Shown piece by piece: positions 995 through 36,234 of a DNA stretch of 64,000 nucleotides (position 1 is its first letter; each line of letters opens with the position of its first letter). The notes under the pieces are model-generated. The model searched no databases, had not been told where the DNA came from, and saw nothing but the letters and a program-made list of their open reading frames with translations. The position numbers were made by a program, and so were the translations under genes. The stretch comes from Acinetobacter phage vB_AbaM_ME3: sequence record KU935715.1. The stretch is one strand, 5' to 3'.

Positions 995-1067
995 TTGAGA
1001 AAATCAGATTCGAACTGATCACGGCCAGAAATTATTCTAGTGCTCTACCAACTGAGCTATTTCACAT
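995..1067 (-). ncRNA. tRNA-like element / possible tRNA pseudogene
   Basis: Reverse complement folds with a 7-bp acceptor stem (one mismatch), canonical D arm (TAGCTCAGTTGGTAGAGC) and T arm (ATCAG-TTCGAAT-CTGAT). The anticodon-arm position is a 6-bp stem with a 4-nt loop (CTAGAA-TAAT-TTCTGG) and no 7-nt anticodon loop. Confidence 0.4.
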
Positions 1068-2554: not shown

Positions 2555-2620
2555 ACTATTGCAACAACAATAAGTATTATGAAGATAACTCCTAATACCA
2601 TTAAAATAGTTGAAATCATA

Positions 2621-3201: not shown

Positions 3202-3455
3202 AATTAAATCTCAATTAATTTATAAAATTACATTTACTGTTGGTTCTTTCGACAACACTTTTCGGATTTTATATGAAGATCGTATCAAAGGTTCTAGCTT
3301 CGATCCTCTGTTGTCATGCACCTCTAAACATTTGTGTGGTAACCCACTCACTGAACCTTATCAGCTTGAACTCAATGTGCCACCCAGAGATTACTCTGAC
3401 CTCATTTATGTTGTAAATGTAATTTTATATTTAAATAATAAGAGCCAAGTCTTCA

Positions 3456-3534
3456 CAAGAGGATGGATTCGAACCACCGACAACAGTAGGGATTTTACTG
3501 CCTACAATACTCTACCGACTGAGCTACTCTGCAA
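3456..3534 (-). ncRNA. tRNA-like element (aberrant cloverleaf)
   Basis: Reverse complement contains a canonical D arm (TAGCTCAGTCGGTAGAGT) and T arm (GGTGG-TTCGAAT-CCATC). Spacing between the D arm and the anticodon region is ~8 nt too long and the acceptor stem is imperfect. A 7-nt loop AAATCCC flanked by CAGTA/TACTG is possible. Confidence 0.4.
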
Positions 3535-4905
3535 TTTCCACTCTCTTATTATTTAGATGGTAAGAATATAAGTTAGTGTTAAGACGTTGATACATTAGGT
3601 ATTACCCTAACGCCAAGAGTTGAACTTGTTAAAAACCTTCTGTAACCCAACAACTATCTTTATTACTGGACAGTAATCATCTGAGATTATTAACCTATAC
3701 CGTATTCTTACCTCTAAATAATAATTAAAAGACATCTAATAACCTAACTTCAGATAAGGGTACTTACTCGATTATCATGAGACTCTACTAAATGTCTTTT
3801 AATTATTATTTAAAAGGTGTGAGGTACAACTCTCACAATGAACCATGTAGCCATTTTGGTTAGCGTCAAGCTGTATACAGCTTAGTTTCTCTAGTCAGCC
3901 CGCTTTAGGTTGTCCCTAATTGTGTGATATCAACACTACCATTTTTCTATCTTACGATAACACCAATGATCAAGTGCTTGTGGTACTAGAAGTCATTAAG
4001 GTGAATATGCCTTTATAGATCATACCAAATCTACAGGCCCATCACTCCCTTCAAATTTTATTACGCCACATCCTGTTTGGACTTACACCGTGTTGGATGT
4101 TATTTATCGGTAGAATTTGAGCCATTAACCAGAGCGCATTTATTAACTTATACTTTCATATAAGATTAGACCTTTTAGAGTGTCCTGATTTCTCAAGCTG
4201 AACTCTATTACCATCTCATATAAGTTGTCAGACTTATACTAACTACTTTTAGAATTACTCCTAATTTCGAGTGTCTCTACTATACAAAGGATAAATCCTT
4301 CTTAGCTATTATAACCATATGAAATAGAACCTCACTTAGAATTATAATATTTAGGTAATTGAGGAAAAACATGAGAATATAAAAGCATACTGCCATAATA
4401 TACGAGCCGTTAAGCCATCAGAATCGAACTGAGTCCTCTTTTATACCTCGATGCCCTTCATTATCGAAAAAGGGCTTTGGCACAATTGTGTTGTGCATCT
4501 CGTATCACTTGAGGTAATAACTCTTGGAATCTAGCAGAGGAGCGACCTCTCTTATTTTATATACCGATTGGATTCTTGTCTCGGTTTGTGGGTCTATTAC
4601 ATGTCATCGTTTCTCAGTTGACAGTGAGGGATCTACAAAAATTGGAATAGACTGACAATGGAGGTAATCATTAATCCCCTATTACAGAGATTAATCCTAT
4701 AGAATGCCTAAGAATTTCAGTTGCAATCTTACATTCAAAAGGACTTATATCAATTAGTATATTGGACAATATGTTCTGGAGACGGATTAGGCGTCTCACT
4801 CTTTTACTAAAAATTAGTAAACGCTTTTAGCCTCGGATTAAGAGACATTCCACTACATTTTAAGCTACAGACCTCAATACTTCCAATCATACTAAATTCT
4901 ATACA

Positions 4906-5882: not shown

Positions 5883-5992
5883 GCAAAGAAGCCTAAAGCA
5901 CCACTTAGTACAAAACTTGCTATAATGATAAATTTGATAACACCTAACACATCTGATTTTGTCATGGAGTTTATCCTTAAAGGGAATATATG

Positions 5993-6042
5993 TTTAAAGG
6001 ATAGAAAGGAAACTGGAGCGAGAATCCTTTCTATCCTTTAAA
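5993..6042. repeat. 18-bp perfect inverted repeat (hairpin with 14-nt loop)
   Basis: tttaaaggatagaaagga ... tcctttctatcctttaaa read directly. Intergenic, downstream of the HD-domain gene on the minus strand. Confidence 0.6.
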
Positions 6043-6049
6043 CATACAC

Positions 6050-6613
6050 TTAAAAATATTTAATAAATTTACTTAAGTGTTTCTTTTTTATTTTAAAAGA
6101 AGTACTTTCAATTCCACCAAACATTTGACAATTAGCTAGTATCTCTGCCCAAGCAGTTAAATACAAACTAAATCCTATCTCTGATTGAATTAGTTCTTGT
6201 GCTTTTTCATCACTTGCTTTTAATATATGGAAATCCATATCATGTTTAACAAGATCATGACCTATTAAGAGATGAGGAAAGAGTTGTTTATATATCTCAT
6301 ATGACACTTGTGCATGATTGGGAAACTGTTGTTTACCTTCTTCATTTACAATTCTACAATAAGGCTTTCCTAAATCATGATAGATTTGATAATGCTTCAT
6401 TGTTTCATAATCTAAGAGAGTAATCCAATTCTTTTTATATACTTCTATAAGGGATTCAGGAACACCTTCAGGTACTACTCCTTTTTCTAAAGAAAGTAAT
6501 AGCTTTAAATATTCATTATTAACCATTAAACCATGTTGATACATATTGACATTTTCAAACTGATAACAGTTCTTCATATCTTTAAGTACCTTATCAAAAG
6601 TTAAGATCTCCAT
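6050..6613 (-). CDS. HD-domain phosphohydrolase
   Basis: Contains the H...HD-type motif (YQIYHDLGKP) and later His/Asp residues typical of the HD superfamily. Confidence 0.5.
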   Translation of the reverse strand: MEILTFDKVLKDMKNCYQFENVNMYQHGLMVNNEYLKLLLSLEKGVVPEGVPESLIEVYKKNWITLLDYETMKHYQIYHDLGKPYCRIVNEEGKQQFPNHAQVSYEIYKQLFPHLLIGHDLVKHDMDFHILKASDEKAQELIQSEIGFSLYLTAWAEILANCQMFGGIESTSFKIKKKHLSKFIKYF

Positions 6614-6900
6614 AACTGATATCTCCTCAATAATATTCTTTGGTCTTGAGTAAGAGGTTCAGTTCCGAACGCTGTGAGACCATAGTCCCAAGAAGGTTCG
6701 AAGAAAGATATAGTTTTGATACCTTTAGTTTCTAAATCTTTTATAGCTTTCTCTAATTGATATTGATTTTTAACACCAATCACTACTAAAGAACTAGGTT
6801 CAGATTGATCTCTGTCACCTAAATATATTCCTGCTTCTAAAGCAGCATGGCCAGCTTGAACTATTTGTTGTTCAACTGGAATATCTCTTCTAACAAACAC
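6601..6900 (-). CDS. peptidyl-tRNA hydrolase, PTH2 family
   Basis: QAGHAAL...VVIGVKNQYQLEKAIKDLETKGIKT...GLTAFGTEP matches the PTH2 pattern (QCSHAAL ... VVLK..SEEEL...LAIGPGP). Confidence 0.55.
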   Translation of the reverse strand: MFVRRDIPVEQQIVQAGHAALEAGIYLGDRDQSEPSSLVVIGVKNQYQLEKAIKDLETKGIKTISFFEPSWDYGLTAFGTEPLTQDQRILLRRYQLWRS

Positions 6901-6978
6901 ATAAGTATGTTTTTTATTTTCATGAATCTAAGTCATTAATTTTTCTCTATAAGTTAATATAAATTTTTGTGAGTTTAA

Positions 6979-7197
6979 TTACTTATTCCAAGTCTTAAAC
7001 AGTTTCAACACTTGAGGTTTAACTGAGTAAACAAAAGTACCATTAACAAACTTAGCATTAGTTAATTCATTCCAAAGCATAGTACTACTAAGATTATTAT
7101 TAACCATAAAATTATATAATTTTAAAACTTCCATATGTTCAGGAAGTTCACCATCTTTTTTAATTTGAGCTTTAATTCTGTTTAATACTTTACTCAT
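6979..7197 (-). CDS. hypothetical protein (72 aa)
   Basis: ORF-track ORF. Confidence 0.4.
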   Translation of the reverse strand: MSKVLNRIKAQIKKDGELPEHMEVLKLYNFMVNNNLSSTMLWNELTNAKFVNGTFVYSVKPQVLKLFKTWNK

Positions 7198-7347
7198 GGT
7201 ACCTCCTGTTTAAGATACTGGCGTTGCCAACTGGGAGTCTAACCCTAATAGAACTTCAATATTATAACCATGTCTAGAATATTATAATATCGTCTACAGC
7301 CTTTCTCCTTCGAATGGAGCTGTGCTACGTACACTATGACAACATTG

Positions 7348-7421
7348 TGGTCCAAAATCTGAGATTCGAACTCAGACGCAGGGTTTTAGGGACCCCTGTG
7401 CTACCATTACACCAATTCTGG
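7348..7421 (-). tRNA. tRNA with encoded 3' CCA; predicted anticodon CUA (amber-reading), with an unusual C at position 33
   Basis: Reverse complement CCAGAAT-TG-GTGT-AATGGTA-GCAC-A-GGGGT-CCCTAAA-ACCCT-GCGT-CTGAG-TTCGAAT-CTCAG-ATTTTGG-ACCA forms a clean cloverleaf in every arm. Confidence 0.6.
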
Positions 7422-7426
7422 AAAGG

Positions 7427-7639
7427 TTACTTCTCAGATGCAGCTAATATACCACAACAAAGAATTAAAGCTACAAACAAACTACCACCAAATTGGTAGA
7501 ATGGTGTAGCATAAGAAGGAGTAAAATAGTTCGTAAAAGCAATAGCAACAATAGCACTAATAACTACTAGTAAAACCATAGCTATGATTATGCCTACACC
7601 TATTAACATACCTTTAAGAAATTTCAATATGATTTTCAT
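7427..7639 (-). CDS. small membrane protein (70 aa, two TM helices)
   Basis: Highly hydrophobic sequence. Confidence 0.5.
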   Translation of the reverse strand: MKIILKFLKGMLIGVGIIIAMVLLVVISAIVAIAFTNYFTPSYATPFYQFGGSLFVALILCCGILAASEK

Positions 7640-7782
7640 TTTGTTTTATCTGATCTAAAGTATCTTCTTCAGCTTGCATGTTTACAAATAATTTAATCTG
7701 TTTTTGAAATATATCTTTCATATCATTTGAAACATTTTTAAAGTTAGGAATTGCTACAGGTTCATCATTCCAAATAGAATTT

Positions 7783-8013
7783 TTATTTGACATAAGCTAA
7801 AGCCTTAGTGATTGTAGATAAATGCATCTCTTCTACTTTTAATTTTAATTGTTTAATATCTTTTATTTCGTTAAAGAATTTAGAACGAATACCAGTAAAA
7901 CTAAAAAGAGTTGTATCTTTAGTTGTTTTATCAATATGTACAAATCCAAAAGATGTTTGAGCTGTAAAACTTAAAGGAGATTCAATCCACTTTATTTTAA
8001 TAACTTGAGCCAT
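7783..8013 (-). CDS. hypothetical protein (76 aa)
   Basis: ORF-track ORF. Confidence 0.45.
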   Translation of the reverse strand: MAQVIKIKWIESPLSFTAQTSFGFVHIDKTTKDTTLFSFTGIRSKFFNEIKDIKQLKLKVEEMHLSTITKALAYVK

Positions 8014-8024
8014 ATAACACCTAA

Positions 8025-8462
8025 TTAACGATAGCTTATCATACCTAAAGATTTTAATTTTGAAATAATTGCACCTGAAGATCTTTTATGTAATCGAGCA
8101 ATTTCTTCGATACTAAGTTTTTTATTAACCCATTCATCTCTTAAGGCTTTAACTTCTATAGTAGTCCATTCTGAGTATCCTCTATAATCAAAGTAATGAT
8201 TATATTGAGTAACTTCTCTATCTCTTTTTCGAGTTTGCTCTGGACTAGAATACATAGTTGGATAGTAATGTATTTCAGTTTTAATTGGATCAGGTAATCT
8301 ATTTACTTTTCTATCTAATTCTTTTTTCAGCTCTTCTTTAAGTCTTTCTTCTGTTTCTAATAAGAGTTTTTTAAAGTTACATATAGTAATACTGAGGACT
8401 AGGAGGAAAATAGCTGTCATACCTACAACAGTAGCTATTAAATCATTCATACTTGATTCCAA
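8025..8462 (-). CDS. membrane-anchored protein with C-terminal helix-turn-helix-like segment
   Basis: N-terminal TM helix (LIATVVGMTAIFLLVLSITI). C-terminal LSIEEIARLHKRSSGAIISKL resembles an HTH. Confidence 0.4.
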   Translation of the reverse strand: MESSMNDLIATVVGMTAIFLLVLSITICNFKKLLLETEERLKEELKKELDRKVNRLPDPIKTEIHYYPTMYSSPEQTRKRDREVTQYNHYFDYRGYSEWTTIEVKALRDEWVNKKLSIEEIARLHKRSSGAIISKLKSLGMISYR

Positions 8463-8900
8463 AACAATAAGAAAGAAATATTAAAAAGACAAGGTAAAAA
8501 CCTATATTACATATAATTAATTGAATTATTAATGAGAAGTTAATCTTAGGAGCAGAATTAATCATACCTAGTGTACAAACACAACAACCTAGTAATGATA
8601 GATAATGAATTACTTCATACATATAAATTCTCTTTAAAGATGGATAGGACAGAAGGAAAGGTAAAACACGAAAAACAACAACACAGGAGATATGTAATCC
8701 TATCCATCTTTAAAGAGAACGTAAAGGAGTTTTAATGAGACTATTAATATTCTTCACCATCATCATTACTCTCCTTTAAATTTTCTTCTAATTCTTGAAT
8801 ACCTTCATTGATATGCTCTTCATCATCTAATTCATAATCTTTCTTAGAATTAGAATGAATCGAAGATTTATTAAAGGTATTCATATGCTTTGCTATAAAG

Positions 8901-9167
8901 TTATTTTTCATAAGGAATAAATTTCCAACGATCTAACTTTCCATAATATTGCAACTGATGATTCTCTAGAATATAGACAAAGCCAGAATCTTCTTTTTCA
9001 CATTTATTTAAAAAAGATTGAATAGTTTTTGAACTTATAACTTTAGAAGGAATCTTACAATAATGAGCATTGTCATAATAACGATAGAAATGTAATTGTG
9101 GTTTTGAATAAATAACTTCATCATAAACACAATCTAACATTTCACTAAATAAGACAAATTTAAACAT
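8901..9167 (-). CDS. hypothetical protein (88 aa)
   Basis: ORF-track ORF overlapping the upstream gene by 8 nt. Confidence 0.5.
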   Translation of the reverse strand: MFKFVLFSEMLDCVYDEVIYSKPQLHFYRYYDNAHYCKIPSKVISSKTIQSFLNKCEKEDSGFVYILENHQLQYYGKLDRWKFIPYEK

Positions 9168-9822
9168 TTACATTACTCAGTTTTTCTATTTCATTCATAA
9201 CTCTACTAGGTGGAAGAGTTAGTACTAATTTAAAGTATTTTCTACAAGCTTTTAAAGTTTTAGGATGAATACTAAAATTCAATCTAGAAGCGAACCTATA
9301 GACTCTAAGAATTCTAAGATGATCTTCCAAAACCCTCTCTTCTGCTTTGCCATTAAAACGTATTACCTTATTGTTAAGATCATTCAACCCTTGTTTAGTT
9401 GGATCAAGTAATGTATTAGAAAATGGATCATAGTAGAGAGAATTAATAGTAATATCACGTCTAATAGAATCTGTTTCAATTGTTCCTATTGAAACAGTTT
9501 CAGGTCTTCTTCCGTCTGTATAAGTACCATCTTTACGGAACAAAGCAACTTCATATTGCTTTCCATGTTTAGAAGCAATTAACACTAAGAAAGACTTTCC
9601 AGCTTCATTAATATCCCAACCATTTTCTAGTAAAGATGATTCAATATTATCCAAGTTTCCATCTGTTACTAAATCAAAATCGTTAGGAATATCACCTAAT
9701 AATAAATCTCTAACACAACCACCAACTAAATATGTATTAGTGGAATGATTATTAATAATGAGAAAAAGTTGAAGAAGAGTTAAATCAGAGACAATAGGAC
9801 GAGTATTCATATTATTGACCAA
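9160..9822 (-). CDS. cca: tRNA nucleotidyltransferase (CCA-adding enzyme) / poly(A) polymerase head-domain protein
   Basis: GGCVRDLLLG...DFDLVT nucleotidyltransferase signature (GGxVRD...DxD). TTG start preceded by AGGAA. Confidence 0.75.
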   Translation of the reverse strand: MVNNMNTRPIVSDLTLLQLFLIINNHSTNTYLVGGCVRDLLLGDIPNDFDLVTDGNLDNIESSLLENGWDINEAGKSFLVLIASKHGKQYEVALFRKDGTYTDGRRPETVSIGTIETDSIRRDITINSLYYDPFSNTLLDPTKQGLNDLNNKVIRFNGKAEERVLEDHLRILRVYRFASRLNFSIHPKTLKACRKYFKLVLTLPPSRVMNEIEKLSNVNV

Positions 9823-9891
9823 AAATTCCTAAGAGGGTATTACAAATACATAGTACTACTACAATAATACAGATATACTTTGCTGGCATTC

Positions 9892-10533
9892 TTAAACCTT
9901 TATGAAAAAACGTATAGTGCTATTACCTTGAGGATCTGGAGTCATCCAAAAATCTGCTTTTATATCAGGAAATAACTTAACAATTGCTTCTAAAATAGAT
10001 TTTGCTTTTTGATTACGAGCTTCAATATTTCTTATTTGAGAATCAGATGAAATACGTACATCCCACATGTTATATACATTATTCCAAACTAATTTAATCA
10101 GTCGTTCCGTATCTAAACCATAAAGATGAAATAGACTTACTAATTGATAACGAGTTACTTTTGCAAATTTATCTTCTTCTTGGTAAGTCCAAGGAGTAAC
10201 TGGAGAGAAAAATTGATAATGTTGTTTCTCACTAATACGATAATTACATTTAGATACATCTTTAACTAAAGTTAGTAGATTTTCAATGTCAATTGTATCG
10301 TAGTTAACTCTTTGTCGTAGTACTATTGGTTTAGACCGAACTTGTTCAATTTCAACAATTTTATAATAATTATCAAACATATGATAAAGTTTACATACAA
10401 ATTCAACATCGCCAATAGTAATAACATTAAGTTCAGATGTATTAATTACATATGAAGCTTTAATAATCCAAGTACCATCTTCACATTTAATTACACTTGA
10501 CATGCATTTAGAAGAGTATGAAAGACTACTCAT
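9892..10533 (-). CDS. hypothetical protein (213 aa)
   Basis: ORF-track ORF. Confidence 0.5.
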   Translation of the reverse strand: MSSLSYSSKCMSSVIKCEDGTWIIKASYVINTSELNVITIGDVEFVCKLYHMFDNYYKIVEIEQVRSKPIVLRQRVNYDTIDIENLLTLVKDVSKCNYRISEKQHYQFFSPVTPWTYQEEDKFAKVTRYQLVSLFHLYGLDTERLIKLVWNNVYNMWDVRISSDSQIRNIEARNQKAKSILEAIVKLFPDIKADFWMTPDPQGNSTIRFFIKV

Positions 10534-10852
10534 AAATTGATCCTGACTCTATTACAGTATAGAAGTTAATATACGTATATAAGTTAAAGTTTGGAGGGAA
10601 AGACTTGTAAGAATCAAAAAATTCAGATCCACCATTCCCCTCTACTTTAACTCTAAATTTATTTAACAAAGTATGTAATCTTTTTTCAATAATTGAAACT
10701 TCTTTACGTTTTGCATAAACCCACCAACCACCTGATATCACTTTTCCATGTATACGAGACAATTGTTTAACCCGTTTATCCAGATTCTTTGTAATACCAA
10801 TCTTAGTTAATTCTGGGTATTTTTCAAACATTAAGAAGTATAAAGTATACAT
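10526..10852 (-). CDS. T5orf172 / GIY-YIG-like domain protein
   Basis: YTLYFLMFEKYPELTKIGITKNLDKRVKQL is the typical T5orf172 N-terminal pattern. Confidence 0.5.
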   Translation of the reverse strand: MYTLYFLMFEKYPELTKIGITKNLDKRVKQLSRIHGKVISGGWWVYAKRKEVSIIEKRLHTLLNKFRVKVEGNGGSEFFDSYKSFPPNFNLYTYINFYTVIESGSIYE

Positions 10853-10853
10853 A

Positions 10854-11273
10854 TTAATAACCTAAGTCTTTAAATATTTTTCCTGAATCATAATCTTGAG
10901 CATCAAAATATTGTTTGCACTCTTTATGAAACTCTTTAAAATTTTGAAGAGTAGTATGTATTGGATTAAGTACAGTAAGAAGAGAAAGAACTGTTTGAAA
11001 TTTAATTGTTTTAAAATTTAAAAGAGAGAGAAGTTGATTCACTTTCTTAAGGTCTTTCTCTTCACCATTCATTAAATCTTCAACAAACAGAATAATTAAA
11101 TATATTACTTGATCAGTTGTATATACTTCTTCTAATTGATTTAAAAGTGATGATCTTTTTCTTACAGATTTATTATCGTAATACAGTGAGTCCATATACA
11201 TAGCTTCACTGTACGTTAACTCTATAGGAATATGAGAAAATTTACTCATACAGTTACTCACTATCTGAAACAA
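10854..11273 (-). CDS. hypothetical protein (139 aa)
   Basis: ORF-track ORF. Confidence 0.5.
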   Translation of the reverse strand: MFQIVSNCMSKFSHIPIELTYSEAMYMDSLYYDNKSVRKRSSLLNQLEEVYTTDQVIYLIILFVEDLMNGEEKDLKKVNQLLSLLNFKTIKFQTVLSLLTVLNPIHTTLQNFKEFHKECKQYFDAQDYDSGKIFKDLGY

Positions 11274-11448
11274 TACCTATTAAAAATTCTATAGGAATTT
11301 GTTCAATGGTTTTTGAACGATTTTTTAAAACTACTAAAGCTTTTTCTTGATTAGCTGTTATAAGCAAACCTTGTAAACCCTTATGTAAGCCATTATAAGG
11401 ACGAACTAAAGCAACTAATTGATGCCCATAAATATCTTTTAATTTCAT
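11254..11448 (-). CDS. hypothetical protein (64 aa)
   Basis: ORF-track ORF. Confidence 0.4.
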   Translation of the reverse strand: MKLKDIYGHQLVALVRPYNGLHKGLQGLLITANQEKALVVLKNRSKTIEQIPIEFLIGIVSDSE

Positions 11449-11663
11449 TTAATAGATTGATACCACTTAGCTATTTTACCAGTGTGCCATAAATAATAAA
11501 TGATTAAAGATAGAATGCCTGCACCACATAAAGTACAAATCATTCCTACAGTAACAACACTATACAATAAATATGTATGTTCTTGAGATACTGGGGCTTT
11601 CTTATCAGCAAGAATAAATCCAATTGAAAGTAAGCTTACAACAAGAAGAAATAATATAAACAT
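11445..11663 (-). CDS. small membrane protein (72 aa)
   Basis: Two hydrophobic segments. Confidence 0.5.
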   Translation of the reverse strand: MFILFLLVVSLLSIGFILADKKAPVSQEHTYLLYSVVTVGMICTLCGAGILSLIIYYLWHTGKIAKWYQSIK

Positions 11664-12010
11664 TATTCAACTCCTTTAAATATTTTAAAACTATCTAGAA
11701 TTAACAAAGATTCTGAAGGAATACTAAATTCAGTAAACTCAATTCGATTTTCTTTGAAATATTCATAAGTGGACATGAAATTGTTTAAGACAATCCAAGC
11801 AGAGTAAAAACTATCTGCACTTCCAAAATGATCAACATAATGCTGAAAGTAATGAAAGAAAAACTTATTATCATCAACAGTTAATGGAAGCTTTAAAGTA
11901 TTTAAAGGTACTTGAAGATTGTTTAAAGATTCGTATAAAGACGTATAGACATCAATAAGTTGTCTATACGTCTTATCTACGACTAATACACTTAAAGTGA
12001 CATTAATCAT
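11663..12010 (-). CDS. hypothetical protein (115 aa)
   Basis: ORF-track ORF. Confidence 0.5.
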   Translation of the reverse strand: MINVTLSVLVVDKTYRQLIDVYTSLYESLNNLQVPLNTLKLPLTVDDNKFFFHYFQHYVDHFGSADSFYSAWIVLNNFMSTYEYFKENRIEFTEFSIPSESLLILDSFKIFKGVE

Positions 12011-12506
12011 CTACAGCCTTTTTCTTTTTACACTTACCTGTAAAGTTATTAAGCTTACTATCATGAACATATTCAAGTGCAACTTCACCACCTTTATGTA
12101 CAAAGGTAGCAACTTTACGGAATGGAGCTACTTTTTCAAACTTCTTGATACGTGCGTAAGCTTTAGCAGCTGAACGAGTAACAGGAATTGGTTGAGAATA
12201 AGTATTAGCTACTTGTGAAAAATGTTCTACAGATTTAATAACAATTACTTGACCTTTACTATTTAAGTAAGGAACAAAAGTCATTGCATTACGTAACGAC
12301 TCTTTAACCCAGCCAAGTTTTGCTACAGGTTTAGTACGAATTTTACGAGAAGCAACACCAGCTAATGCTGTTACTGCTTGTTGATCGTTAGGGTGAGCCT
12401 TAAGATGCTTGGCTAATTTACGCTTAGCATTCTTAGAGAAATTACCTTTCATTGCATATGAAGTAAATTTTGCTTTACGGCCAGCACCAGGCTTAAGTTT
12501 AGACAT
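12003..12506 (-). CDS. highly basic Lys/Ala-rich protein (possible nucleic-acid-binding protein)
   Basis: 167 aa with high Lys/Arg/Ala content (MSKLKPGAGRKAKF...KCKKKKAVDD). Confidence 0.45.
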   Translation of the reverse strand: MSKLKPGAGRKAKFTSYAMKGNFSKNAKRKLAKHLKAHPNDQQAVTALAGVASRKIRTKPVAKLGWVKESLRNAMTFVPYLNSKGQVIVIKSVEHFSQVANTYSQPIPVTRSAAKAYARIKKFEKVAPFRKVATFVHKGGEVALEYVHDSKLNNFTGKCKKKKAVDD

Positions 12507-12667
12507 TTCTTTAATCCTTTTTTGGAAATTAATTGAAATAAAAAGAGAAATACACAGAGAAGTTTTAATTAGTCTTCAGAATTATCAATCACAATTGAAG
12601 CATAGTAATCTAAGCGACTATTGATCTCACTAATACTTTGAGCTAATACAGTTAATTTAAACATTAG

Positions 12668-13069
12668 TTATCCTTTAATAACACTTGTCATTTTTACATT
12701 TAATTCTACTTCAACCACATCATGATTTTCATAATAATGTACTAGTTGACGTAGAACAGGTTCAGGGATTGTTTCAAATACTCGTTCCTTAAATGTAGGA
12801 ACTTGAGGAGTATATGTTTGATCTTTTGTTTTAGGAATTTCTTTAATAGGTGTCTTAGTTTTCTTAGCAAAAACATCTTTTGAAGAAAGCAACTCTTTAG
12901 TCAATGGAACAATTCCATTGATATGATCTTTATAACGTTCCCAGCGACCTTTATTATAAAGTTCATAACTATCTTTTTCTCTTTGACGAAAAATAGTTAC
13001 AGTGTTCTTCTTTTGATTAAAGCGAACATGTGTAGAAGTCTCAGGAATAAATGTGTTACTTAAATTCAT
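12668..13069 (-). CDS. hypothetical protein (133 aa)
   Basis: ORF-track ORF directly downstream of the vWA gene. Confidence 0.5.
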   Translation of the reverse strand: MNLSNTFIPETSTHVRFNQKKNTVTIFRQREKDSYELYNKGRWERYKDHINGIVPLTKELLSSKDVFAKKTKTPIKEIPKTKDQTYTPQVPTFKERVFETIPEPVLRQLVHYYENHDVVEVELNVKMTSVIKG

Positions 13070-13076
13070 TTTAGAA

Positions 13077-14522
13077 TTACTCTTTAACTAATGCATAACG
13101 ATCTACTAATAGCGTTTCTTTCATAATAGCTTCAGGTGAAAACTCATCTAAAGTATTAGAACAAACTGCTTTTAATAGAGAAGGAGAAAAGCTAGATAAT
13201 AAACAAGCACCTGATTCATCATATTTAACAGGAAAGTTATTATTAGAAGGAGTGTTAAGAACCCAAAAGATTAATTTAGGACATTTTAATCCTGCTTCTT
13301 TAAACTTAACTTGAGCATCAACATATGCTGAGCTTTCACGAGAATTAAAATTAAACTGAGTGTCACTGAAGAAAACTAAATATTCAGGTAATTGATCTGA
13401 AGAAATATTATTAGAAACTACTAGATCTAATAGTAGTTTAAAGACACCTTCAACATTTGTACTATAACCAACTTGACTTTGAGCAATAAGATCATAACGC
13501 TCTTTTAAAGTTTTACAATCTTTGAGATCAACAAAAGAAGGATGATCTGCAAATGTAGTTACAAGGTTTTTAAATGGACCTTCAATACGTTCACTGATGT
13601 AAGCACCTAAAGTAATTGCAATATGTTTATATGTTGCATTACCTACAGCAGGAGCTTCCATTGAACCACTTAAATCAACTACAGGAAGAATCGATAAACC
13701 TTCTTTAATTAAATTAGGAAAGCTATTCCACTGAGCTTCTACAACAGGATTAGGTTCGAAATAAGGAGAATAACGAGACCCTAATATTGAATAAACTTCA
13801 GAAATTTCATGAAGAAATAATGTAGACGAATTTAAAGTTGCAGTTCCCTCACTCACTTTATTAATAAAATCATTAAAACGATCTGAGTCTTTAGACAAGA
13901 ATGTATTTTTATAACGATTAAAAGCTTTAGAAGGAACTGTACTATAATCTATTTCAGCGATACGATGCTCACACAATAAACGTTCAGTAACTTTAGCTCG
14001 TAAAGGGACAATTAACTGTCTTAATTCTTTAGGAGTGACCTTAAGATAAGAACGTAACATAGATGCAACATTGCCTTTCAAAGGTAACCACTTTGCAACT
14101 AATATCTGAGTTTCAGGATTTTTCAAATGTTCAGCTAATAGTCGAATAATCTTTTTCTTAATACGAAGATCAACATCACATTCTACTAAATTAAATAAAT
14201 CAGGATAATACCCTAACTCTACAATTTTAGATAAAAGATTAGTTTTTAAAAATACATCAATATCTATATGAGCTAAATGAATCATACAGAGATTAAATGA
14301 ATTACGAATACCTTTACCTTGTCTAATATCACGAGAATTCAAAAGATTACGAATTGCTAAATCTTTGTCTTCTAGATAAGCTTTTCGAAAATCTAAAATA
14401 GCTTCTTGAGAATAGTTAGGATCACCTAATTTAACAAAGAAATCTAAATTATGAGAAGCAGTACTAGAATAAGCTACTGCCCCATTAGTGGTTTGTGTTT
14501 TTAAAGCTGTTGCTGCAAACAT
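13077..14522 (-). CDS. vWA (MIDAS) domain protein with Ro60/TROVE-like architecture (possibly DUF2828-type)
   Basis: C-terminal vWA with MIDAS: VVDLSGSM ... GYSTNVEGVF ... LVFFSDTQ. A ~280-aa helical N-terminal region precedes the vWA domain, as in Ro60/Rsr. The TROVE assignment is inference. Confidence 0.5.
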   Translation of the reverse strand: MFAATALKTQTTNGAVAYSSTASHNLDFFVKLGDPNYSQEAILDFRKAYLEDKDLAIRNLLNSRDIRQGKGIRNSFNLCMIHLAHIDIDVFLKTNLLSKIVELGYYPDLFNLVECDVDLRIKKKIIRLLAEHLKNPETQILVAKWLPLKGNVASMLRSYLKVTPKELRQLIVPLRAKVTERLLCEHRIAEIDYSTVPSKAFNRYKNTFLSKDSDRFNDFINKVSEGTATLNSSTLFLHEISEVYSILGSRYSPYFEPNPVVEAQWNSFPNLIKEGLSILPVVDLSGSMEAPAVGNATYKHIAITLGAYISERIEGPFKNLVTTFADHPSFVDLKDCKTLKERYDLIAQSQVGYSTNVEGVFKLLLDLVVSNNISSDQLPEYLVFFSDTQFNFNSRESSAYVDAQVKFKEAGLKCPKLIFWVLNTPSNNNFPVKYDESGACLLSSFSPSLLKAVCSNTLDEFSPEAIMKETLLVDRYALVKE

Positions 14523-14537: not shown

Positions 14538-14978
14538 TTATCGAATACGTTTATGAAAAGATATAAAATCAGGATCATCTATAAAACGTTTAAACATTTT
14601 TAGATTATATTCTGAAAAAGGAGAAGAGGAAGGGTTGGTTAATTGTTCAGGAGTTACATACTCTACCTTAGCTCCTTCTTTATTCACAAAAGGAAGTTTT
14701 GGTAAGTCTTTAACAACACCATCATATACATAAGTTAATGTATCATACTCACCATCCCAATCTTGGAATAGAAACATTAATTTTGTAGGATCTAACTCAA
14801 TACCTACTTCTTCACGAACTTCACGAACAAGTCCTTGAATTAATGTTTCTTCTTCCTCTGCCTTACCACCTGGAAGTCCTAATAAATTATGATTGTCTTT
14901 ACGTGATACTGATAACACCTTAGAACCAGTTTCTGGATCAGGGTAGAGTAAGAGTATAGCTTGTTTTAAATCTTTCAT
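14538..14978 (-). CDS. Nudix hydrolase
   Basis: Nudix box GLPGGKAEEEETLIQGLVREVREEVGI (Gx5Ex7REUxEExGU). Confidence 0.8.
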   Translation of the reverse strand: MKDLKQAILLLYPDPETGSKVLSVSRKDNHNLLGLPGGKAEEEETLIQGLVREVREEVGIELDPTKLMFLFQDWDGEYDTLTYVYDGVVKDLPKLPFVNKEGAKVEYVTPEQLTNPSSSPFSEYNLKMFKRFIDDPDFISFHKRIR

Positions 14979-14996: not shown

Positions 14997-16097
14997 TTAG
15001 AGAGCATATGCTGATTGGTTTGTTAAAAAACTTTTATACATTGGTTGAATAAGGAATTTAAGTCCTTGATGAATAATTGTAATTTCACGTGTCATTGGAT
15101 TTTGACTAATTTCACTATTCATGTGAGTAATATATACATCAAATGCTTGATCACCTAATTCTTCATCAGTTGAGTATGGGTTCCATTCATTACGATGTTT
15201 ATTTAAAAACTCTAATAAACATGAAGAATTAGCTACAAAATCAGCAGGATCATATTCAGAATTAGTATTAAGATTAAACGCTCGAATATTAAATTCAATA
15301 GTGTCATTATTCAATTGAGTTTTAATATTAAGAATTTCAGTTAAACTTGCAATTGACTCTTCAGGATACTGATTCATTTCTTTAATTAATACAGATAACA
15401 TATCAATATTAAATTTAGAGAACTTTCCTACAAATTCCAATACTTCACTAGTACGTGATTGATCTTCTAAGTTATCTTTCATGTACTCTTTAAGTAGTTC
15501 AATATCTAATGATTTGAACTCAATATTAAAATAAACACGACCAGGACGATTGCTAAAGTACTCTAAATGGTGACCATATAAAGTTGTATTAGCAGTCATT
15601 AAGAATAAAGTATGTTGAGGCCATGTACCATCTAATAAGCTTAACATAGAATTACGAGGTTCAGCTTCCATGTATACTTTTTCAAATTCATCAATCACTA
15701 CAATTTTATCTTGAGTAATACTTTGAAGGAATTGATTAAATGTAGAACCAGCATAAGGTTGATCAACAATTAAGACAATTCCTTGATGAGATTCTACAAA
15801 GTTAATACAAATACGTTTAAGTAATAAGCTCTTACCACTTCCTTTTTCACCTACAAAGGCAGCAGATGTAGCTTTGTCTTGACGTTCAAAGTATGTATCT
15901 AAGATACGACCAGCCCAACGATCTGATTTTCCATATACTTTATGGTAAATAGTAAAAGGATTTGTAGGGCTTAAGAAGAATTGTTTAACTTGGTCATCCC
16001 ATTGAACAGAATAATAACCAGCTGGAATAACAGGTACAATAAACTTTGCTAGATTTTCAGCAACATAATAACCATTAGGTTTATTTAAATAAGACAT
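14997..16097 (-). CDS. P-loop NTPase (Walker A GEKGSGKS, Walker B IVVIDEFE)
   Basis: Both motifs read directly. Confidence 0.55.
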   Translation of the reverse strand: MSYLNKPNGYYVAENLAKFIVPVIPAGYYSVQWDDQVKQFFLSPTNPFTIYHKVYGKSDRWAGRILDTYFERQDKATSAAFVGEKGSGKSLLLKRICINFVESHQGIVLIVDQPYAGSTFNQFLQSITQDKIVVIDEFEKVYMEAEPRNSMLSLLDGTWPQHTLFLMTANTTLYGHHLEYFSNRPGRVYFNIEFKSLDIELLKEYMKDNLEDQSRTSEVLEFVGKFSKFNIDMLSVLIKEMNQYPEESIASLTEILNIKTQLNNDTIEFNIRAFNLNTNSEYDPADFVANSSCLLEFLNKHRNEWNPYSTDEELGDQAFDVYITHMNSEISQNPMTREITIIHQGLKFLIQPMYKSFLTNQSAYAL

Positions 16098-16597
16098 TAT
16101 AAAAGTCCTTGTCTGATTTCATTTCGAATTTGCATTAATACTTCACCAAGAAGATTACGACCATTCCATTGAGAAGGATCTGTAGCTCTTGGATCATCTT
16201 CTTCTAAACCAACGCCCCAAATCTTATCATTAGGATTACATTCAACTAAGGTTAGTTCTTTAGTTGCTAATAAGTAGTCACGATACTTAGGAATAGTATA
16301 TTTTTGACGATTAATTTCTAGCATATAGTTATAACGAACTTGTTCCCAAGATGCATCATTATAATTAGATACTTTACGACCGAGTTGCTTAGCTTGGATT
16401 GGCTGTAACTGAGTATTTTCTAAAAGCTTCATTGTAGCTTTATCATTAAAATGAAGAGCTTTAGCATACATAAAAGCATTTTCTGTATATAAAAATGTAA
16501 CACCTTTATATTCAAAACCAGCAAAAGCAAAATTACTAAATGGGCCTCTTAAAAAGAGTAAGTAATTATCTTTAATTGTACATTGAGGAATATTCAT
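16097..16597 (-). CDS. NADAR / YbiA-like (DUF1768) domain protein
   Basis: FLRGPFSNFAFAGF...AFMYAKA...DKIWGVGL matches the NADAR family signature. Confidence 0.6.
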   Translation of the reverse strand: MNIPQCTIKDNYLLFLRGPFSNFAFAGFEYKGVTFLYTENAFMYAKALHFNDKATMKLLENTQLQPIQAKQLGRKVSNYNDASWEQVRYNYMLEINRQKYTIPKYRDYLLATKELTLVECNPNDKIWGVGLEEDDPRATDPSQWNGRNLLGEVLMQIRNEIRQGLL

Positions 16598-17344: not shown

Positions 17345-17686
17345 TCATCTTTCTTTAAACTCAAATCTGGAGTTTTGAGAATTATAATCCAGAACAAAAT
17401 CTAGTCCTCTAAATTTAGAAAATATTGACTGAATTACATAGAATACATTGTTATCAATATAGAAGGACTTCAGATTAGTTTTAAATATAATCTTTAATGA
17501 ATTTTCAGTTGGTATATAAACAGGTGAAACTAATACAGATTGATTTGAAAGCTGAGATATTAAAAATTTAGAAACACCAGCTTCTCTATAAAGGGCTAAA
17601 GCTGCTTTAGCTGAATCAGATATATATAGTGAGTACTGAGATAAGTCAACAAATTGATTAAGTTTATTCATGAGGTTTGCAATCAA
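17345..17686 (-). CDS. paralog family A member (KL-x-KF leader; probable start at internal Met, MNKLNQF, ~17671)
   Basis: Shares the N-terminal leader with neighbouring ORFs. Confidence 0.5.
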   Translation of the reverse strand: MIANLMNKLNQFVDLSQYSLYISDSAKAALALYREAGVSKFLISQLSNQSVLVSPVYIPTENSLKIIFKTNLKSFYIDNNVFYVIQSIFSKFRGLDFVLDYNSQNSRFEFKER

Positions 17687-18011
17687 TAATTTTATAAGGT
17701 TCTTTAAAATCTATTAAAGGTAATAATCCATATCTAATGCTTTTAGGTCCAAATACATAATCTGTTTCAAATGATTTACGCATAACTTGACCATCTATAT
17801 AAATAATGCATTGATTGATTTTAAACCATACAGAATCTTTTAAATCATATTTTGAAGGAGGAACTCGATAGAATCCTAAACAATCCTCAGCGTATGTACT
17901 ATCACTAATATAGACACTTTTATAGATATCCTTTATTTTTAATAATCTACTATACATATCTAAACACATTCGTATAGAATGATTTATCTTAAACCGAGAT
18001 AAAGTGTTCAT
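17664..18011 (-). CDS. paralog family A member (MNTLSRFKINHS...)
   Basis: Leader motif. ~115 aa. Tandem arrangement. Confidence 0.5.
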   Translation of the reverse strand: MNTLSRFKINHSIRMCLDMYSRLLKIKDIYKSVYISDSTYAEDCLGFYRVPPSKYDLKDSVWFKINQCIIYIDGQVMRKSFETDYVFGPKSIRYGLLPLIDFKEPYKIIDCKPHE

Positions 18012-18013
18012 AA

Positions 18014-18702: not shown

Positions 18703-18718
18703 ATTAATCCTTTATATA

Positions 18719-34528: not shown

Positions 34529-35608
34529 CTATTTCCTTAATTCGTTAGGAACAATTCTTTTAAATCGCCAATGGTTACTTCCATCAGCAATATGATTTGC
34601 TCTAACTAATTTACAAAGTTTATTTCGAAATTCAGAATAATGAAAAGATTTAGTTGTACGAACTACTATACCTTCATGTCCTGCTTTAACAACTTGTTTA
34701 AATAAATCATTAATTACAACTTCATCGTATGGTCCTCGATATATTTCTTGAACCATTGTCATACCTAACAATTCAAACCATTCTTTTGTATCATCCCAAG
34801 ATAGACATATGTCCTTATCCCACACTTGGAATCCGTACAAATATGAATCTAAATCTTGATAATGAATTGCATGTTTAGCATATAAATTCTCTGCATAGTA
34901 ACGCATACCTTCAGGAATATTATAAGCAATATGTTGATAATGGAAGTTCTTTGCCCAAGCACGAGATTCATGATCTAAAGAATCGATAGAACGAGCATGA
35001 CAATAATCGGGGTATCCCGCAAAGTTCTCTCCATCCATTTTAATAGTTATTACAATTTCATCAGATACTAAATGATGTGATATATTGTAATTAGTTTTAT
35101 CATCTTCAGTTTTATGAGCACTTAAAGGATGATGATACGAACGAGGATACTTGTAATAATGAGTAAATTCATCTAGTACTCCGCCATCAGATAAAACTTT
35201 CTGAACTGATTCATCATAGAATAATGGACCAGGCATTCTCTTACCATTAAGAAGAATGATGTTACCCCATTTATCATATTGATGATCAGGGTACATATAT
35301 TCAGGAAGAACAACTTTTTGAGCTCCTACCTTCTCTCTTACTTCATCACAACTAATAACTGTTTGTTCGCACTTTAAATGACAAGAATCACAGACGGTAC
35401 CAGCGTTTTCGATATGATAGCCAAAACAATCCGAAAATAAACGTCTTTCGACAATGTGATGCACAGATAATTTCTCTGTACTACCACAGAAGATACACTT
35501 GTGGTTGTCTCTTATTAAACCTTGTTCTCTAAATTCATCTCTAGATAAAGGTTTCCCATCTGTTCCATGACAACCACAAATTGTTGAGTGAGGTTTACTA
35601 GATTTCAT
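34529..35608 (-). CDS. HNH-type zinc-finger fused to an ATP-dependent RNA/DNA ligase-like nucleotidyltransferase domain
   Basis: N-terminal CxxC...HH...CxxC (CIFCGSTEKLSVHHIVERRLF...CDSCH) HNH-like motif. Central TIKMDGENF resembles the ligase adenylation motif I (KxDGxN/R). Confidence 0.45.
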   Translation of the reverse strand: MKSSKPHSTICGCHGTDGKPLSRDEFREQGLIRDNHKCIFCGSTEKLSVHHIVERRLFSDCFGYHIENAGTVCDSCHLKCEQTVISCDEVREKVGAQKVVLPEYMYPDHQYDKWGNIILLNGKRMPGPLFYDESVQKVLSDGGVLDEFTHYYKYPRSYHHPLSAHKTEDDKTNYNISHHLVSDEIVITIKMDGENFAGYPDYCHARSIDSLDHESRAWAKNFHYQHIAYNIPEGMRYYAENLYAKHAIHYQDLDSYLYGFQVWDKDICLSWDDTKEWFELLGMTMVQEIYRGPYDEVVINDLFKQVVKAGHEGIVVRTTKSFHYSEFRNKLCKLVRANHIADGSNHWRFKRIVPNELRK

Positions 35609-36225: not shown

Positions 36226-36234
36226 AATTATTCC

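What the first reader, a model, noticed from the sequence alone, without database searches (positions are those of the whole stretch)
6050..14522. RNA-repair / tRNA-maintenance gene set including a Ro60-like vWA protein
Within ~9 kb the window encodes an HD-domain hydrolase, a PTH2-type peptidyl-tRNA hydrolase, a CCA-adding tRNA nucleotidyltransferase and a 481-aa protein with a C-terminal MIDAS vWA domain preceded by a long helical region. That last layout is the one seen in Ro60/Rsr (TROVE + vWA). An HNH/RNA-ligase-like fusion lies at 34.5 kb. Bacterial Rsr loci typically sit next to tRNA-like Y RNAs and RNA ligases. Here several tRNA-like elements with defective anticodon arms lie just upstream. 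This suggests a phage-borne RNA quality-control or repair system directed against host anticodon-nuclease defences.
Basis: partly seen in the sequence, partly recalled or inferred. Interest (0 to 1): 0.7.

Follow-up and report, generated by a model that had tools for sequence, protein, structure and literature searches.

The report
Phage Ro60-like protein beside tRNA genes
A phage gene encodes a slimmed-down relative of the Ro60 RNA-binding ring protein and sits in an island of tRNA-end-repair genes, odd tRNA look-alikes and a long folded RNA; the protein family is already annotated in hundreds of phages but nobody knows what RNA it binds.

Summary

The protein belongs to a known phage family (PHROG 850, "Ro-like RNA-binding protein", 702 phage records), so it is a new member of a known kind.

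- The Ro60 fold is supported, but no member matches the TROVE sequence model.
- No Y RNA or YrlA was found.
- The neighbouring genes are not conserved partners.

What is conserved is position. In 80 viral contigs the gene lies at the downstream end of same-strand tRNA arrays.

In this window the tRNA island is unusual. It has one amber-suppressor tRNA, two conserved tRNA look-alikes with 6- and 10-nt anticodon loops, and a roughly 1.35-kb ORF-free RNA with compensatory base-pair changes and no Rfam family.

The function is inferred, not shown: binding or quality control of tRNA-type transcripts.

The parts
13077..14522 (-). Ro60-like RNA-binding protein, 481 aa: compact helical solenoid (DUF2828) plus MIDAS vWA domain (DUF7788)
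14538..14978 (-). NUDIX hydrolase, 15 nt upstream of the Ro-like gene in the same gene string
   Evidence: PF00293 at 3.8e-13, with a weak Nudt16-like match. The same order is seen in relative L004.
14997..16097 (-). P-loop/AAA-type ATPase (PHROG 2376)
   Evidence: A homolog lies directly after the Ro-like gene in L031/L032 and within 1.7 kb in Aeromonas phage LAh_9. This is not general.
16097..16597 (-). NADAR-domain protein (ADP-ribose-derivative hydrolase family)
   Evidence: PF08719 at 6.5e-39. A DUF1768/NADAR gene also lies near the Ro-like gene in Listeria phage LP-083-2.
9160..9822 (-). Head-only class II tRNA nucleotidyltransferase (CCA-adding-type), 220 aa
   Evidence: PolyA_pol head at 4.3e-31; PHROG 24229 'tRNA nucleotidyltransferase' at 4e-92. 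The short form is conserved in L004 and L006.
7348..7421 (-). Canonical tRNA with anticodon CUA (amber suppressor) and genome-encoded CCA
   Evidence: ARAGORN call and Rfam match at 54.7 bits. Conserved in L004, L006 and L007, and present in L010, L020 and L060.
6601..6900 (-). PTH2-like (peptidyl-tRNA-hydrolase-fold) protein, 99 aa, overlapping the HD gene by 13 nt
   Evidence: Own Pfam E 0.048. 32 of 40 homologs hit PTH2, and the family profile hits solved Pth2 structures at E 9.3e-5.
6050..6613 (-). HD-superfamily phosphohydrolase, 187 aa, closest to the HD region of class II CCA/A-adding enzymes
   Evidence: Invariant H..HD..H..D pattern. 14 of 23 homologs hit Pfam HD, and one is fused to PTH2. 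The best PDB profile hit is 3wfo-3wfs at E 0.03 over the HDxGKP motif.
3533..4890 (-). Roughly 1.35-kb ORF-free, GC-enriched structured RNA candidate with T-arm-like hairpins, ending at tRNA-like element tl2
   Evidence: No ORF under any stop-codon reading. GC is 33-39%. Conserved blocks with variable hairpins. Compensatory pairs. No Rfam family.
3454..3532 (-). tRNA-like element tl2: normal D and T arms, bulged acceptor stem, 10-nt anticodon loop. The whole anticodon arm is replaced in relative L096.
   Evidence: Rfam tRNA at 30 bits; sequence; alignment A3.
995..1066 (-). tRNA-like element tl1: cloverleaf with a 6-nt anticodon loop and no encoded CCA
   Evidence: ARAGORN 'tRNA-???' and Rfam at 45 bits. 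The 6-nt loop is kept in L094 and L096, with compensatory T-stem and anticodon-stem changes.
34529..35608 (-). HNH-RNA ligase fusion (Rnl2-type nucleotidyltransferase), 20 kb from the Ro-like gene
   Evidence: PF09414 at 1.8e-23. PHROG 24030 'RNA ligase' at 9e-193 plus HNH PHROGs. KMDG motif.

Best explanation
ORF 13077-14522 encodes a compact homolog of the Ro60/Rsr RNA-binding protein. It belongs to the widespread phage DUF2828/DUF7788 family, annotated 'Ro-like RNA-binding protein'.

Shown:
- The family assignment and the intact metal-binding MIDAS site.
- A predicted fold that superposes on Ro60 across both the helical and the vWA domains.
- A strong positional link of the family to phage tRNA gene arrays on the same strand.

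Inferred:
- Like Ro60, the protein binds structured or misfolded small RNAs, here phage tRNA precursors or the non-decoding tRNA look-alikes.
- It does so to chaperone them, protect them or hand them to nucleases.
- It works alongside a loose island of enzymes that all act on the tRNA 3' end. These are a PTH2-like esterase that removes an acyl or peptidyl group, an HD phosphohydrolase related to the repair domain of CCA enzymes that clears 2',3'-cyclic or 3'-phosphate ends, and a head-only nucleotidyltransferase that rebuilds CCA.
- NUDIX, NADAR and an HNH-RNA ligase act as further RNA-end or anti-defence functions.

The set is best read as a translation-maintenance island, not a fixed operon.
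For: - Weak Ro60 sequence signals: the family profile hits four Ro60/TROVE chains at E 0.37-0.96 at the solenoid-vWA junction. Three of 42 members hit Pfam vWA_Ro60.
- MIDAS residues are invariant.
- tRNA linkage in 80 IMG/VR loci: a tRNA lies within 1 kb in 43 loci and within 2 kb in 54. All 710 tRNAs are on the gene's strand. Density is 0.9-1.7 per kb for 10 kb upstream, against 0.3 per kb in the first kb downstream and 0-0.22 per kb beyond it.
- The same adjacency holds in Felixounavirus HY02, where a 23-tRNA array starts 166 nt after the gene, and in Listeria LP-083-2, Enterococcus 21C1 and Cronobacter S13.
- In Listeria phage LP-083-2 the gene is followed by an HD phosphohydrolase, RtcB, DUF1768/NADAR and an RNA ligase. 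This echoes the bacterial rsr-Y RNA-rtcB arrangement (established knowledge; PMC4201824 for Y RNAs next to rsr).
- The 3'-end theme.
- The tRNA look-alikes are conserved with compensatory changes, so they are functional RNAs and not decayed genes.
Against: - No RNA-binding experiment exists for any DUF2828 protein. The structure is a prediction.
- No member matches TROVE PF05731 at E up to 1. About 130 Ro60 residues have no counterpart, so a closed ring is not established.
- No Y RNA or YrlA family was found in this window or in seven related loci.
- In this window the Ro-like gene is flanked by coding sequence. The tRNA-type RNAs are 5.6-13.5 kb away.
- The other island genes are not conserved neighbours.
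- Some family members have no tRNA nearby: LeBron and 17 of 80 IMG/VR loci, although several of those are cut short on the upstream side.
- The 80 IMG/VR loci are the best-scoring ones and may be phylogenetically clustered.
Confidence: 0.55

Rival explanations
1. Host-factor capture. The Ro-like protein, with or without a phage RNA, binds a host exoribonuclease such as PNPase and damps or redirects it. This would protect phage transcripts or blunt RNA-dependent defences. It would not repair tRNA.
For: - The TROVE-type Ro60 of Thermus phage phiLo binds two phage Y-like RNAs and host PNPase and attenuates its activity (PMC12135203). That protein is among the closest structural matches here.
- Overexpression of family member LeBron gp53 is toxic to the host (PMC13148394; gp53 is a tblastn hit).
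Against: - phiLo Ro60 belongs to the TROVE family, which this protein does not match by sequence.
- No Y-like RNA was found next to the gene.
- This reading does not explain the strict same-strand placement at tRNA arrays.
Confidence: 0.2
2. Protein-directed vWA/MIDAS factor. The protein is a co-chaperone or adaptor that works on proteins, possibly with the AAA-type ATPase two genes upstream, as in MoxR-vWA pairs. The similarity to Ro60 would then reflect only shared ancestry of the fold.
For: - MIDAS vWA domains usually mediate protein contacts (established knowledge).
- An ATPase (PHROG 2376) lies at 14997-16097.
- ATPase homologs sit directly after the Ro-like gene in L031/L032 and 1.7 kb away in Aeromonas phage LAh_9.
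- MoxR-vWA pairs are known in jumbo phages (PMC7824862).
Against: - The ATPase is adjacent in only 2 of 80 loci.
- It matches several P-loop/AAA-type Pfam models only weakly, most below their curated cut-offs. MoxR-type models are not among the hits.
- The structural match to Ro60 includes about 200 residues of the helical RNA-binding domain, not only the vWA domain.
- The tRNA-array linkage is unexplained by this reading.
Confidence: 0.1
3. No system. The genes between 6 and 16.6 kb are independent accessory genes that merely share the early or accessory region of a large phage genome. Their common RNA theme is coincidental or only loosely functional.
For: - About 20 small ORFs of unknown function separate the named genes.
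- tblastn of 20 window proteins against the 80 DUF2828 loci finds essentially no conserved partners.
- The RNA ligase is 20 kb away.
- A T5orf172 homing-endonuclease-like gene at 10526-10852 points to mosaic gene flux.
Against: - PTH2-like and HD genes overlap and are fused in other phages.
- NADAR, ATPase, NUDIX, Ro-like and the next ORF are spaced by 0-18 nt.
- The same functional classes recur next to the family in an unrelated Listeria phage.
- Three of the enzymes act on the tRNA 3' end.
Confidence: 0.3

Closest known systems
Phage DUF2828/DUF7788 family (PHROG 850; 'Ro-like RNA-binding protein', e.g. mycobacteriophage LeBron gp53, Listeria phage A511 gp57, a Felix O1 ORF)
   Same: Full-length match to both Pfam domains and to PHROG 850. 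Size is 460-520 aa. The MIDAS site is invariant. There are 702 phage records with hits covering 97-99% of the query at 26-34% identity.
   Different: It is only 34% or less identical to any deposited phage. Its nearest relatives (79-99%) are unnamed metagenome contigs. Here the gene lies upstream of, and several kb from, a degenerate tRNA island. It does not sit at the end of a normal tRNA array.
Ro60 / Rsr (TROVE + vWA_Ro60), including Thermus phage phiLo Ro60 with Yrl1/Yrl2
   Different: No TROVE sequence match. The protein is about 50-60 residues shorter overall, and about 130 Ro60 residues are unmatched. No Y RNA or YrlA was detected. RNA binding, ring closure and PNPase tethering are untested.
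Bacterial YrlA Y RNAs (tRNA mimics bound by Rsr)
   Same: tl1, tl2 and the 113-121-nt RNAs of phages S13 and phiAS5 keep the tRNA D and T arms but lack a decoding anticodon arm. YrlA also lacks a decoding anticodon (PMC4201824).
   Different: The ends of the phage elements form an ordinary acceptor stem, with encoded CCA in S13. YrlA ends form the Rsr-binding stem and its acceptor-like arm is capped. No covariance-model match. The elements lie 5.6-13.5 kb from the gene rather than within 4 kb.
GOLLD and ROOL large ornate RNAs of phages
   Same: A large (over 1 kb) structured non-coding RNA candidate inside a phage tRNA island, with conserved cores and variable peripheral hairpins. The context resemblance rests on my own knowledge of those families.
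   Different: No match to any of 4227 Rfam models at E up to 10, even with relaxed filters. Only four closely related copies are known.
Class II CCA-adding enzymes with C-terminal HD domain (e.g. E. coli Cca; Aquifex 3wfo-3wfs)
   Same: The head domain is clearly homologous. The separate HD protein shares the HDxGKP...F.H motif region.
   Different: The two activities sit on separate small proteins 2.5 kb apart. The nucleotidyltransferase lacks the body and tail domains that hold the tRNA.

Membership tests
Phage DUF2828/DUF7788 'Ro-like RNA-binding protein' (PHROG 850) | Matches to PF11443 and PF25043 above their curated cut-offs, and a full-length PHROG 850 match | tested here: met
   116.6 bits against a cut-off of 27.1, and 99.3 bits against 29. 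PHROG 850 at E 1.4e-123 over residues 3-477. All 42 aligned homologs carry both domains.
Phage DUF2828/DUF7788 'Ro-like RNA-binding protein' (PHROG 850) | Conserved MIDAS motif (DxSxS...T...D) in the C-terminal domain | tested here: met
   D283, S285, S287, T355 and D387 are invariant in alignment A1.
Ro60/Rsr (TROVE family) | Sequence match to the TROVE domain model PF05731 | tested here: not met
   None of the 42 family members hits PF05731 at E up to 1. The PDB profile search gives only E 0.37-0.96 to Ro60 chains, confined to the start of the vWA domain.
Ro60/Rsr (TROVE family) | Helical (HEAT-like) solenoid followed by a vWA domain, superposable on solved Ro60 | tested here: met
Ro60/Rsr (TROVE family) | Closed ring with a basic central cavity that takes RNA 3' ends, and an outer Y-RNA-binding surface | not testable with these tools
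   Model coordinates cannot be inspected here. About 130 Ro60 residues are unmatched, so ring closure is open.
Ro60/Rsr (TROVE family) | A Y RNA or YrlA gene within a few kb on the same strand | tested here: not met
   No Y RNA-type Rfam match in the window or in seven related loci. Both flanks of the gene are coding.
YrlA-type Y RNA (for tl1 and tl2) | tRNA-like D/T module whose 5' and 3' ends form the Ro-binding stem, with a capped acceptor-like arm | tested here: not met
   tl1 and tl2 have open acceptor stems at their ends and score as tRNA at 45 and 30 bits.
Class II CCA-adding tRNA nucleotidyltransferase | PolyA_pol head (catalytic) domain | tested here: met
   PF01743 at E 4.3e-31, covering model positions 1-126 of 126.
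Class II CCA-adding tRNA nucleotidyltransferase | Neck, body and tail domains that position the tRNA | tested here: not met
   The protein is 220 aa, with only 34 of 64 positions of PolyA_pol_RNAbd. The short form is conserved in relatives.
PTH2 peptidyl-tRNA hydrolase | Match to PF01981 above its cut-off | tested here: inconclusive
   The window protein scores 14.3 bits against a cut-off of 23. However, 32 of 40 homologs hit PTH2 (best 6.2e-8), and the family profile hits solved Pth2 chains at E 9.3e-5 to 0.005. Catalytic residues were not checked.
HD-superfamily phosphohydrolase | H...HD...D metal-ligand pattern and a match to PF01966 | tested here: inconclusive
   The H27/H79-D80/H100/D125 pattern is invariant. 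The window protein scores 16 bits against a cut-off of 22. 14 of 23 homologs hit HD (best 6.9e-6).
Rnl2-type RNA ligase (PF09414) | Nucleotidyltransferase domain with a KxDG motif | tested here: met
   84 bits against a cut-off of 27. The KMDG motif is seen in the translation.
GOLLD / ROOL large RNAs (for 3533-4890) | Match to the Rfam covariance model | tested here: not met
   No such hit at E up to 10 in 1.75-kb and 13-kb searches with relaxed filters.

The most novel reading that the evidence does not exclude
DUF2828 Ro-like proteins form ribonucleoprotein particles with phage-encoded tRNA mimics that cannot decode. Candidate mimics are tl1 and tl2 here, and the 113-121-nt RNAs next to the gene in Cronobacter phage S13 and Aeromonas phage phiAS5. 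These RNAs would be an independently evolved counterpart of Ro60-Y RNA particles. In this phage lineage the partner may include, or be released from, a previously undescribed 1.35-kb structured RNA that ends in tl2. Such particles would guard or repair the phage's translation apparatus against host tRNA-targeting defences.
Probability: 0.2. Interest if true: 0.8.

Novelty: new member of a known kind. Interest (0 to 1): 0.5.

Why it matters
The family occurs in at least 702 sequenced phages, including workhorses such as Felix O1, A511/P100-type Listeria phages, Staphylococcus and Enterococcus Herelleviridae and Campylobacter phages. Yet it has no known ligand or phenotype beyond toxicity on overexpression.

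Three results turn 'RNA-binding protein' into a concrete, testable hypothesis:
- The family is a true structural Ro60 relative.
- It is positioned at the end of tRNA arrays.
- Non-decoding tRNA mimics recur nearby.

The questions that follow are which RNAs thread into a phage Ro ring, and whether this protects tRNAs from host nucleases. The accompanying 1.35-kb structured RNA, if transcribed, would add a new large non-coding RNA to the few known from phages.

Tried and rejected
1. Second 481-aa ORF at 23400-24845 as a paralog of the Ro-like gene. Rejected: there is no similarity and it is an AAA ATPase.
2. Stop-codon recoding to explain the ORF-free 3.2-4.9 kb region, given the suppressor tRNA. 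Rejected: all six frames carry many stops of all three kinds, and treating TAG as sense adds no more coverage than treating TAA as sense.
3. The ORF-free region as decayed tRNA genes or homing-endonuclease remnants from the normal tRNA array seen in relatives L007/L008. Rejected: tblastx and sensitive blastn find no significant similarity, and the region shows compensatory changes.
4. More copies of the large RNA. nhmmer against all held loci found only tRNA parts. Exact-pattern scans of IMG/VR and JGI metagenomes gave only chance hits in unrelated GC-rich or coding DNA.
5. Relaxed ARAGORN settings to find further tRNA-like elements gave only noise spread across coding sequence. Intron mode missed the S13 and phiAS5 RNAs.
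6. Conserved protein partners of the Ro-like gene. Essentially none were found by tblastn of 20 window proteins.
7. Promoter and terminator scans were uninformative: fewer promoter-like sites than in shuffled sequence.
8. Megablast of the region against deposited phages found no match. Single-sequence phmmer against the PDB found no match.
9. Burroughs & Aravind 2016 on RNA repair systems could not be read because it is not held.

Full report
**Layout.** The window has 30% G+C, and every gene from 0.5 to 64 kb is on the minus strand. The finding covers 6050-14522. Read in the direction of transcription, the string runs as follows:
- NADAR (16597-16097)
- a P-loop ATPase (16097-14997)
- NUDIX (14978-14538)
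- the 481-aa protein (14522-13077)
- about fifteen small ORFs, which include a DUF7022 protein and a T5orf172 homing-endonuclease-like gene
- a 220-aa nucleotidyltransferase (9822-9160)
- more small ORFs
- a tRNA (7421-7348)
- a PTH2-like ORF (6900-6601) that overlaps an HD-like ORF (6613-6050)

After these comes a gene-poor stretch from 4.9 kb down to 0.5 kb.

**The 481-aa protein.**
- Pfam places it in DUF2828 plus DUF7788, well above the cut-offs. PHROGs places it in family 850, 'RNA-binding protein', at E 1.4e-123.
- The large protein database search listed 225 significant relatives among the 8000 candidates it scored. All 120 shown carry both domains.
- Among deposited phages, tblastn finds 702 records, nearly all full length at 26-34% identity. 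They include Felixounavirus, Listeria A511-type, Staphylococcus, Enterococcus and Bacillus phages, Campylobacter phages, Vibrio and Aeromonas T4-like phages, and cluster L mycobacteriophages. In the mycobacteriophages the gene is annotated 'Ro-like RNA binding protein'.
- An alignment of 42 diverse members has an invariant DxSxS...T...D MIDAS motif and a conserved N-terminal RDxRGGxGER-type motif.
- AlphaFold2 on that alignment gives a confident model, with pLDDT 85.9 and pTM 0.85. It has about 260 residues of stacked helices followed by an alpha/beta domain.
- By Foldseek, the nine best PDB matches are all Ro60/TROVE proteins: human, Xenopus, Deinococcus Rsr and Thermus phage phiLo.

**Limits of the Ro60 match.** Sequence evidence is much weaker. 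No member hits the TROVE model, three of 42 hit vWA_Ro60 weakly, and the family profile touches Ro60 chains only at E 0.4-1. I file the protein as a member of the phage DUF2828 family and as a structural, probably distant evolutionary, relative of Ro60. I do not file it as a TROVE-family member.

**The other genes.**
- The nucleotidyltransferase has a complete class II head domain (E 4e-31) but ends after 220 residues. It lacks the body and tail that hold tRNA. The short form is conserved in relatives.
- The PTH2-like and HD-like proteins fall below the Pfam cut-offs on their own. Their families do not. 32 of 40 homologs of the first hit PTH2, and its profile finds solved peptidyl-tRNA hydrolases at E 9e-5.
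- 14 of 23 homologs of the second hit HD. The H...HD...H...D ligands are invariant. The best solved match is the HDxGKP region of Aquifex CCA/A-adding enzymes. One homolog is a PTH2-HD fusion. PHROG 14850 fits this picture: its profile has 77 extra N-terminal positions before the part that matches the HD protein.
- Three enzymes that act on the tRNA 3' end are therefore encoded within 4 kb.
- The HNH-RNA ligase at 34.5 kb is real, but it is 20 kb away.

**RNA elements.**
- Covariance models and ARAGORN find three tRNA-type genes.
- The one at 7348-7421 is a normal tRNA with anticodon CUA and an encoded CCA. It is conserved in relatives, and similar suppressor tRNAs lie near DUF2828 genes in three unrelated contigs. 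The window shows no sign of TAG recoding.
- tl1 (995-1066) has a 6-nt anticodon loop. Relatives at 90-98% protein identity keep the 6-nt loop while changing both strands of the T stem and the anticodon stem.
- tl2 (3454-3532) has a bulged acceptor stem and a 10-nt loop. One relative carries a completely different anticodon arm on the same frame.
- These are conserved RNAs that cannot decode normally.
- They are not Y RNAs by any available model, and their ends form an ordinary acceptor stem.

**A long structured RNA candidate.**
- Between tl2 and the 146-aa ORF lies 1.35 kb with no ORF in any frame or stop-codon reading. Its G+C is 33-39% against about 28% around it.
- In three close relatives the same stretch consists of invariant blocks separated by hairpins that differ in sequence and length.
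- In one 326-column block, eight predicted pairs change on both sides. Shuffles give 3.3 +/- 1.4 and none of 500 reaches eight. Slid-partner controls give 0-2.
- Other blocks add four and six such pairs.
- The 3' block is 97-99% identical even to the relative whose flanking genes are about 80% identical.
- The region contains several T-arm-like hairpins and matches no Rfam family.
- With only four close copies this is a good candidate, not a proven RNA class.

**Context in other phages.**
- I fetched 80 IMG/VR contigs that encode the family.
- 63 of them carry tRNAs. The nearest tRNA is within 1 kb in 43 and within 2 kb in 54. All 710 tRNAs are on the strand of the gene.
- Density is 0.9-1.7 tRNAs per kb throughout the 10 kb upstream. 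Downstream it is 0.3 per kb in the first kb and 0-0.22 per kb beyond. In these phages the gene closes the tRNA array.
- In Felixounavirus HY02 a 23-tRNA array starts 166 nt after the gene instead.
- In Listeria LP-083-2 and Enterococcus 21C1 the gene follows the array. The LP-083-2 gene is followed by an HD phosphohydrolase, RtcB, DUF1768/NADAR and an RNA ligase.
- In Cronobacter S13 and Aeromonas phiAS5, 113-121-nt RNAs lie 0.5-2.6 kb downstream. They have normal acceptor, D and T arms, but the anticodon arm is replaced by an insert of about 55 nt.
- LeBron has no tRNA nearby.
- None of the other window genes is a conserved neighbour.
- More distant relatives of this phage carry an ordinary tRNA array where the window has the tRNA mimics and the long RNA.

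**What is known.**
- Ro60/Rsr binds Y RNAs and misfolded RNAs. Bacterial Y RNAs mimic tRNA and are encoded next to rsr, including in 22 phages with TROVE proteins (PMC4201824).
- A TROVE-type phage Ro60 binds two Y-like RNAs and host PNPase (PMC12135203).
- TROVE proteins were noted among the RNA-repair genes of jumbo phages (PMC7824862).
- LeBron gp53, a member of the present family, is toxic when overexpressed (PMC13148394).
- I found no paper that discusses DUF2828 in phages.

**Verdict.** The Ro60-like reading is right at the level of fold and already exists as a database annotation. The 'repair system against anticodon nucleases' remains an inference.
- It gains support from the tRNA-array linkage and from the 3'-end theme of the neighbouring enzymes.
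- It is weakened by the lack of conserved partners, the absence of a detectable Y RNA, and the distance to the RNA elements.
- The most interesting leads are the family-wide position at tRNA arrays, the conserved non-decoding tRNA mimics, and the unclassified 1.35-kb structured RNA.

Noticed in passing
window 3533-4890 (-): A roughly 1.35-kb ORF-free, GC-enriched stretch. It is conserved in three close relatives as invariant blocks separated by variable hairpins, with compensatory base-pair changes and several T-arm-like hairpins. It matches no Rfam family and runs straight into tRNA-like element tl2.
   Followed up: partly
window 7348-7421 (-); also L004, L006, L007, L010, L020, L060: An amber-suppressor tRNA (anticodon CUA) with encoded CCA. 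It is conserved in relatives, and similar tRNAs lie near DUF2828 genes in unrelated viral contigs. There is no evidence of TAG recoding in this window's ORFs.
   Followed up: partly
window 3716-3808: An 89-nt near-perfect AT-rich hairpin is present only in the window. It is absent at the same point in L094 and L096, so it looks like a small inserted palindromic element.
   Followed up: partly
window 2119-2574: A 455-nt segment is missing from the 98%-identical relatives L094 and L095. It holds a 75-aa TTG-start ORF and a stretch of 38-39% G+C. A 26-nt inverted repeat lies nearby at 1831-1856 and 1924-1949.
   Followed up: no
L003 8886-9006 and 9016-9128; L090 8748-8865 and 9016-9133: Cronobacter phage S13 and Aeromonas phage phiAS5 carry pairs of 113-121-nt tRNA-like RNAs. 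They have normal acceptor, D and T arms, and the S13 pair has encoded CCA. The anticodon arm is replaced by an insert of about 55 nt, which in three of the four RNAs holds a similar small hairpin. They lie 0.5-2.6 kb downstream of the Ro-like gene.
   Followed up: partly
window 5985-6048 (-): A long, nearly perfect hairpin lies immediately after the HD gene and is conserved in L094. It is probably a terminator or processing site. It scored as spurious plant microRNA families.
   Followed up: no
window 17664-20772 and 32936-38853: Runs of tandem small ORFs (104-136 aa) fall into paralog families of 6, 5, 3 and 2 members by all-against-all BLASTP. None has a known domain.
   Followed up: partly
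window 49142-56150: A Ter-stress-type cluster: a StiP cysteine protease fused to a PELOTA RNA-binding domain, a PRTase_2 phosphoribosyltransferase, and a TerC/DUF475 membrane protein. NAD synthetase (58403-59173) and a 2OG-Fe(II) oxygenase (61072-61851) lie nearby.
   Followed up: no
window 63229-63620 (-): A group I intron (Rfam 51 bits, just above the gathering score) lies between ORF 62114-63190 and an endonuclease-like ORF at 63574-63924. The interrupted host gene was not identified.
   Followed up: no
window 46928-48955 (-): This 675-aa protein (PHROG 1735) is 47% identical to proteins of Klebsiella KB57-type myophages. It is widespread in Ackermannviridae-like phages and is variously annotated as RNA polymerase or hypothetical. 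It is the best clue found to the phage's wider kinship.
   Followed up: no
L007 and L008 (relatives at 58% HD-protein identity): Downstream of the PTH2-like/HD pair these relatives have an ordinary 9-13-gene tRNA array interspersed with HNH endonuclease genes. It sits at the place where the window has tRNA mimics and the long RNA.
   Followed up: partly
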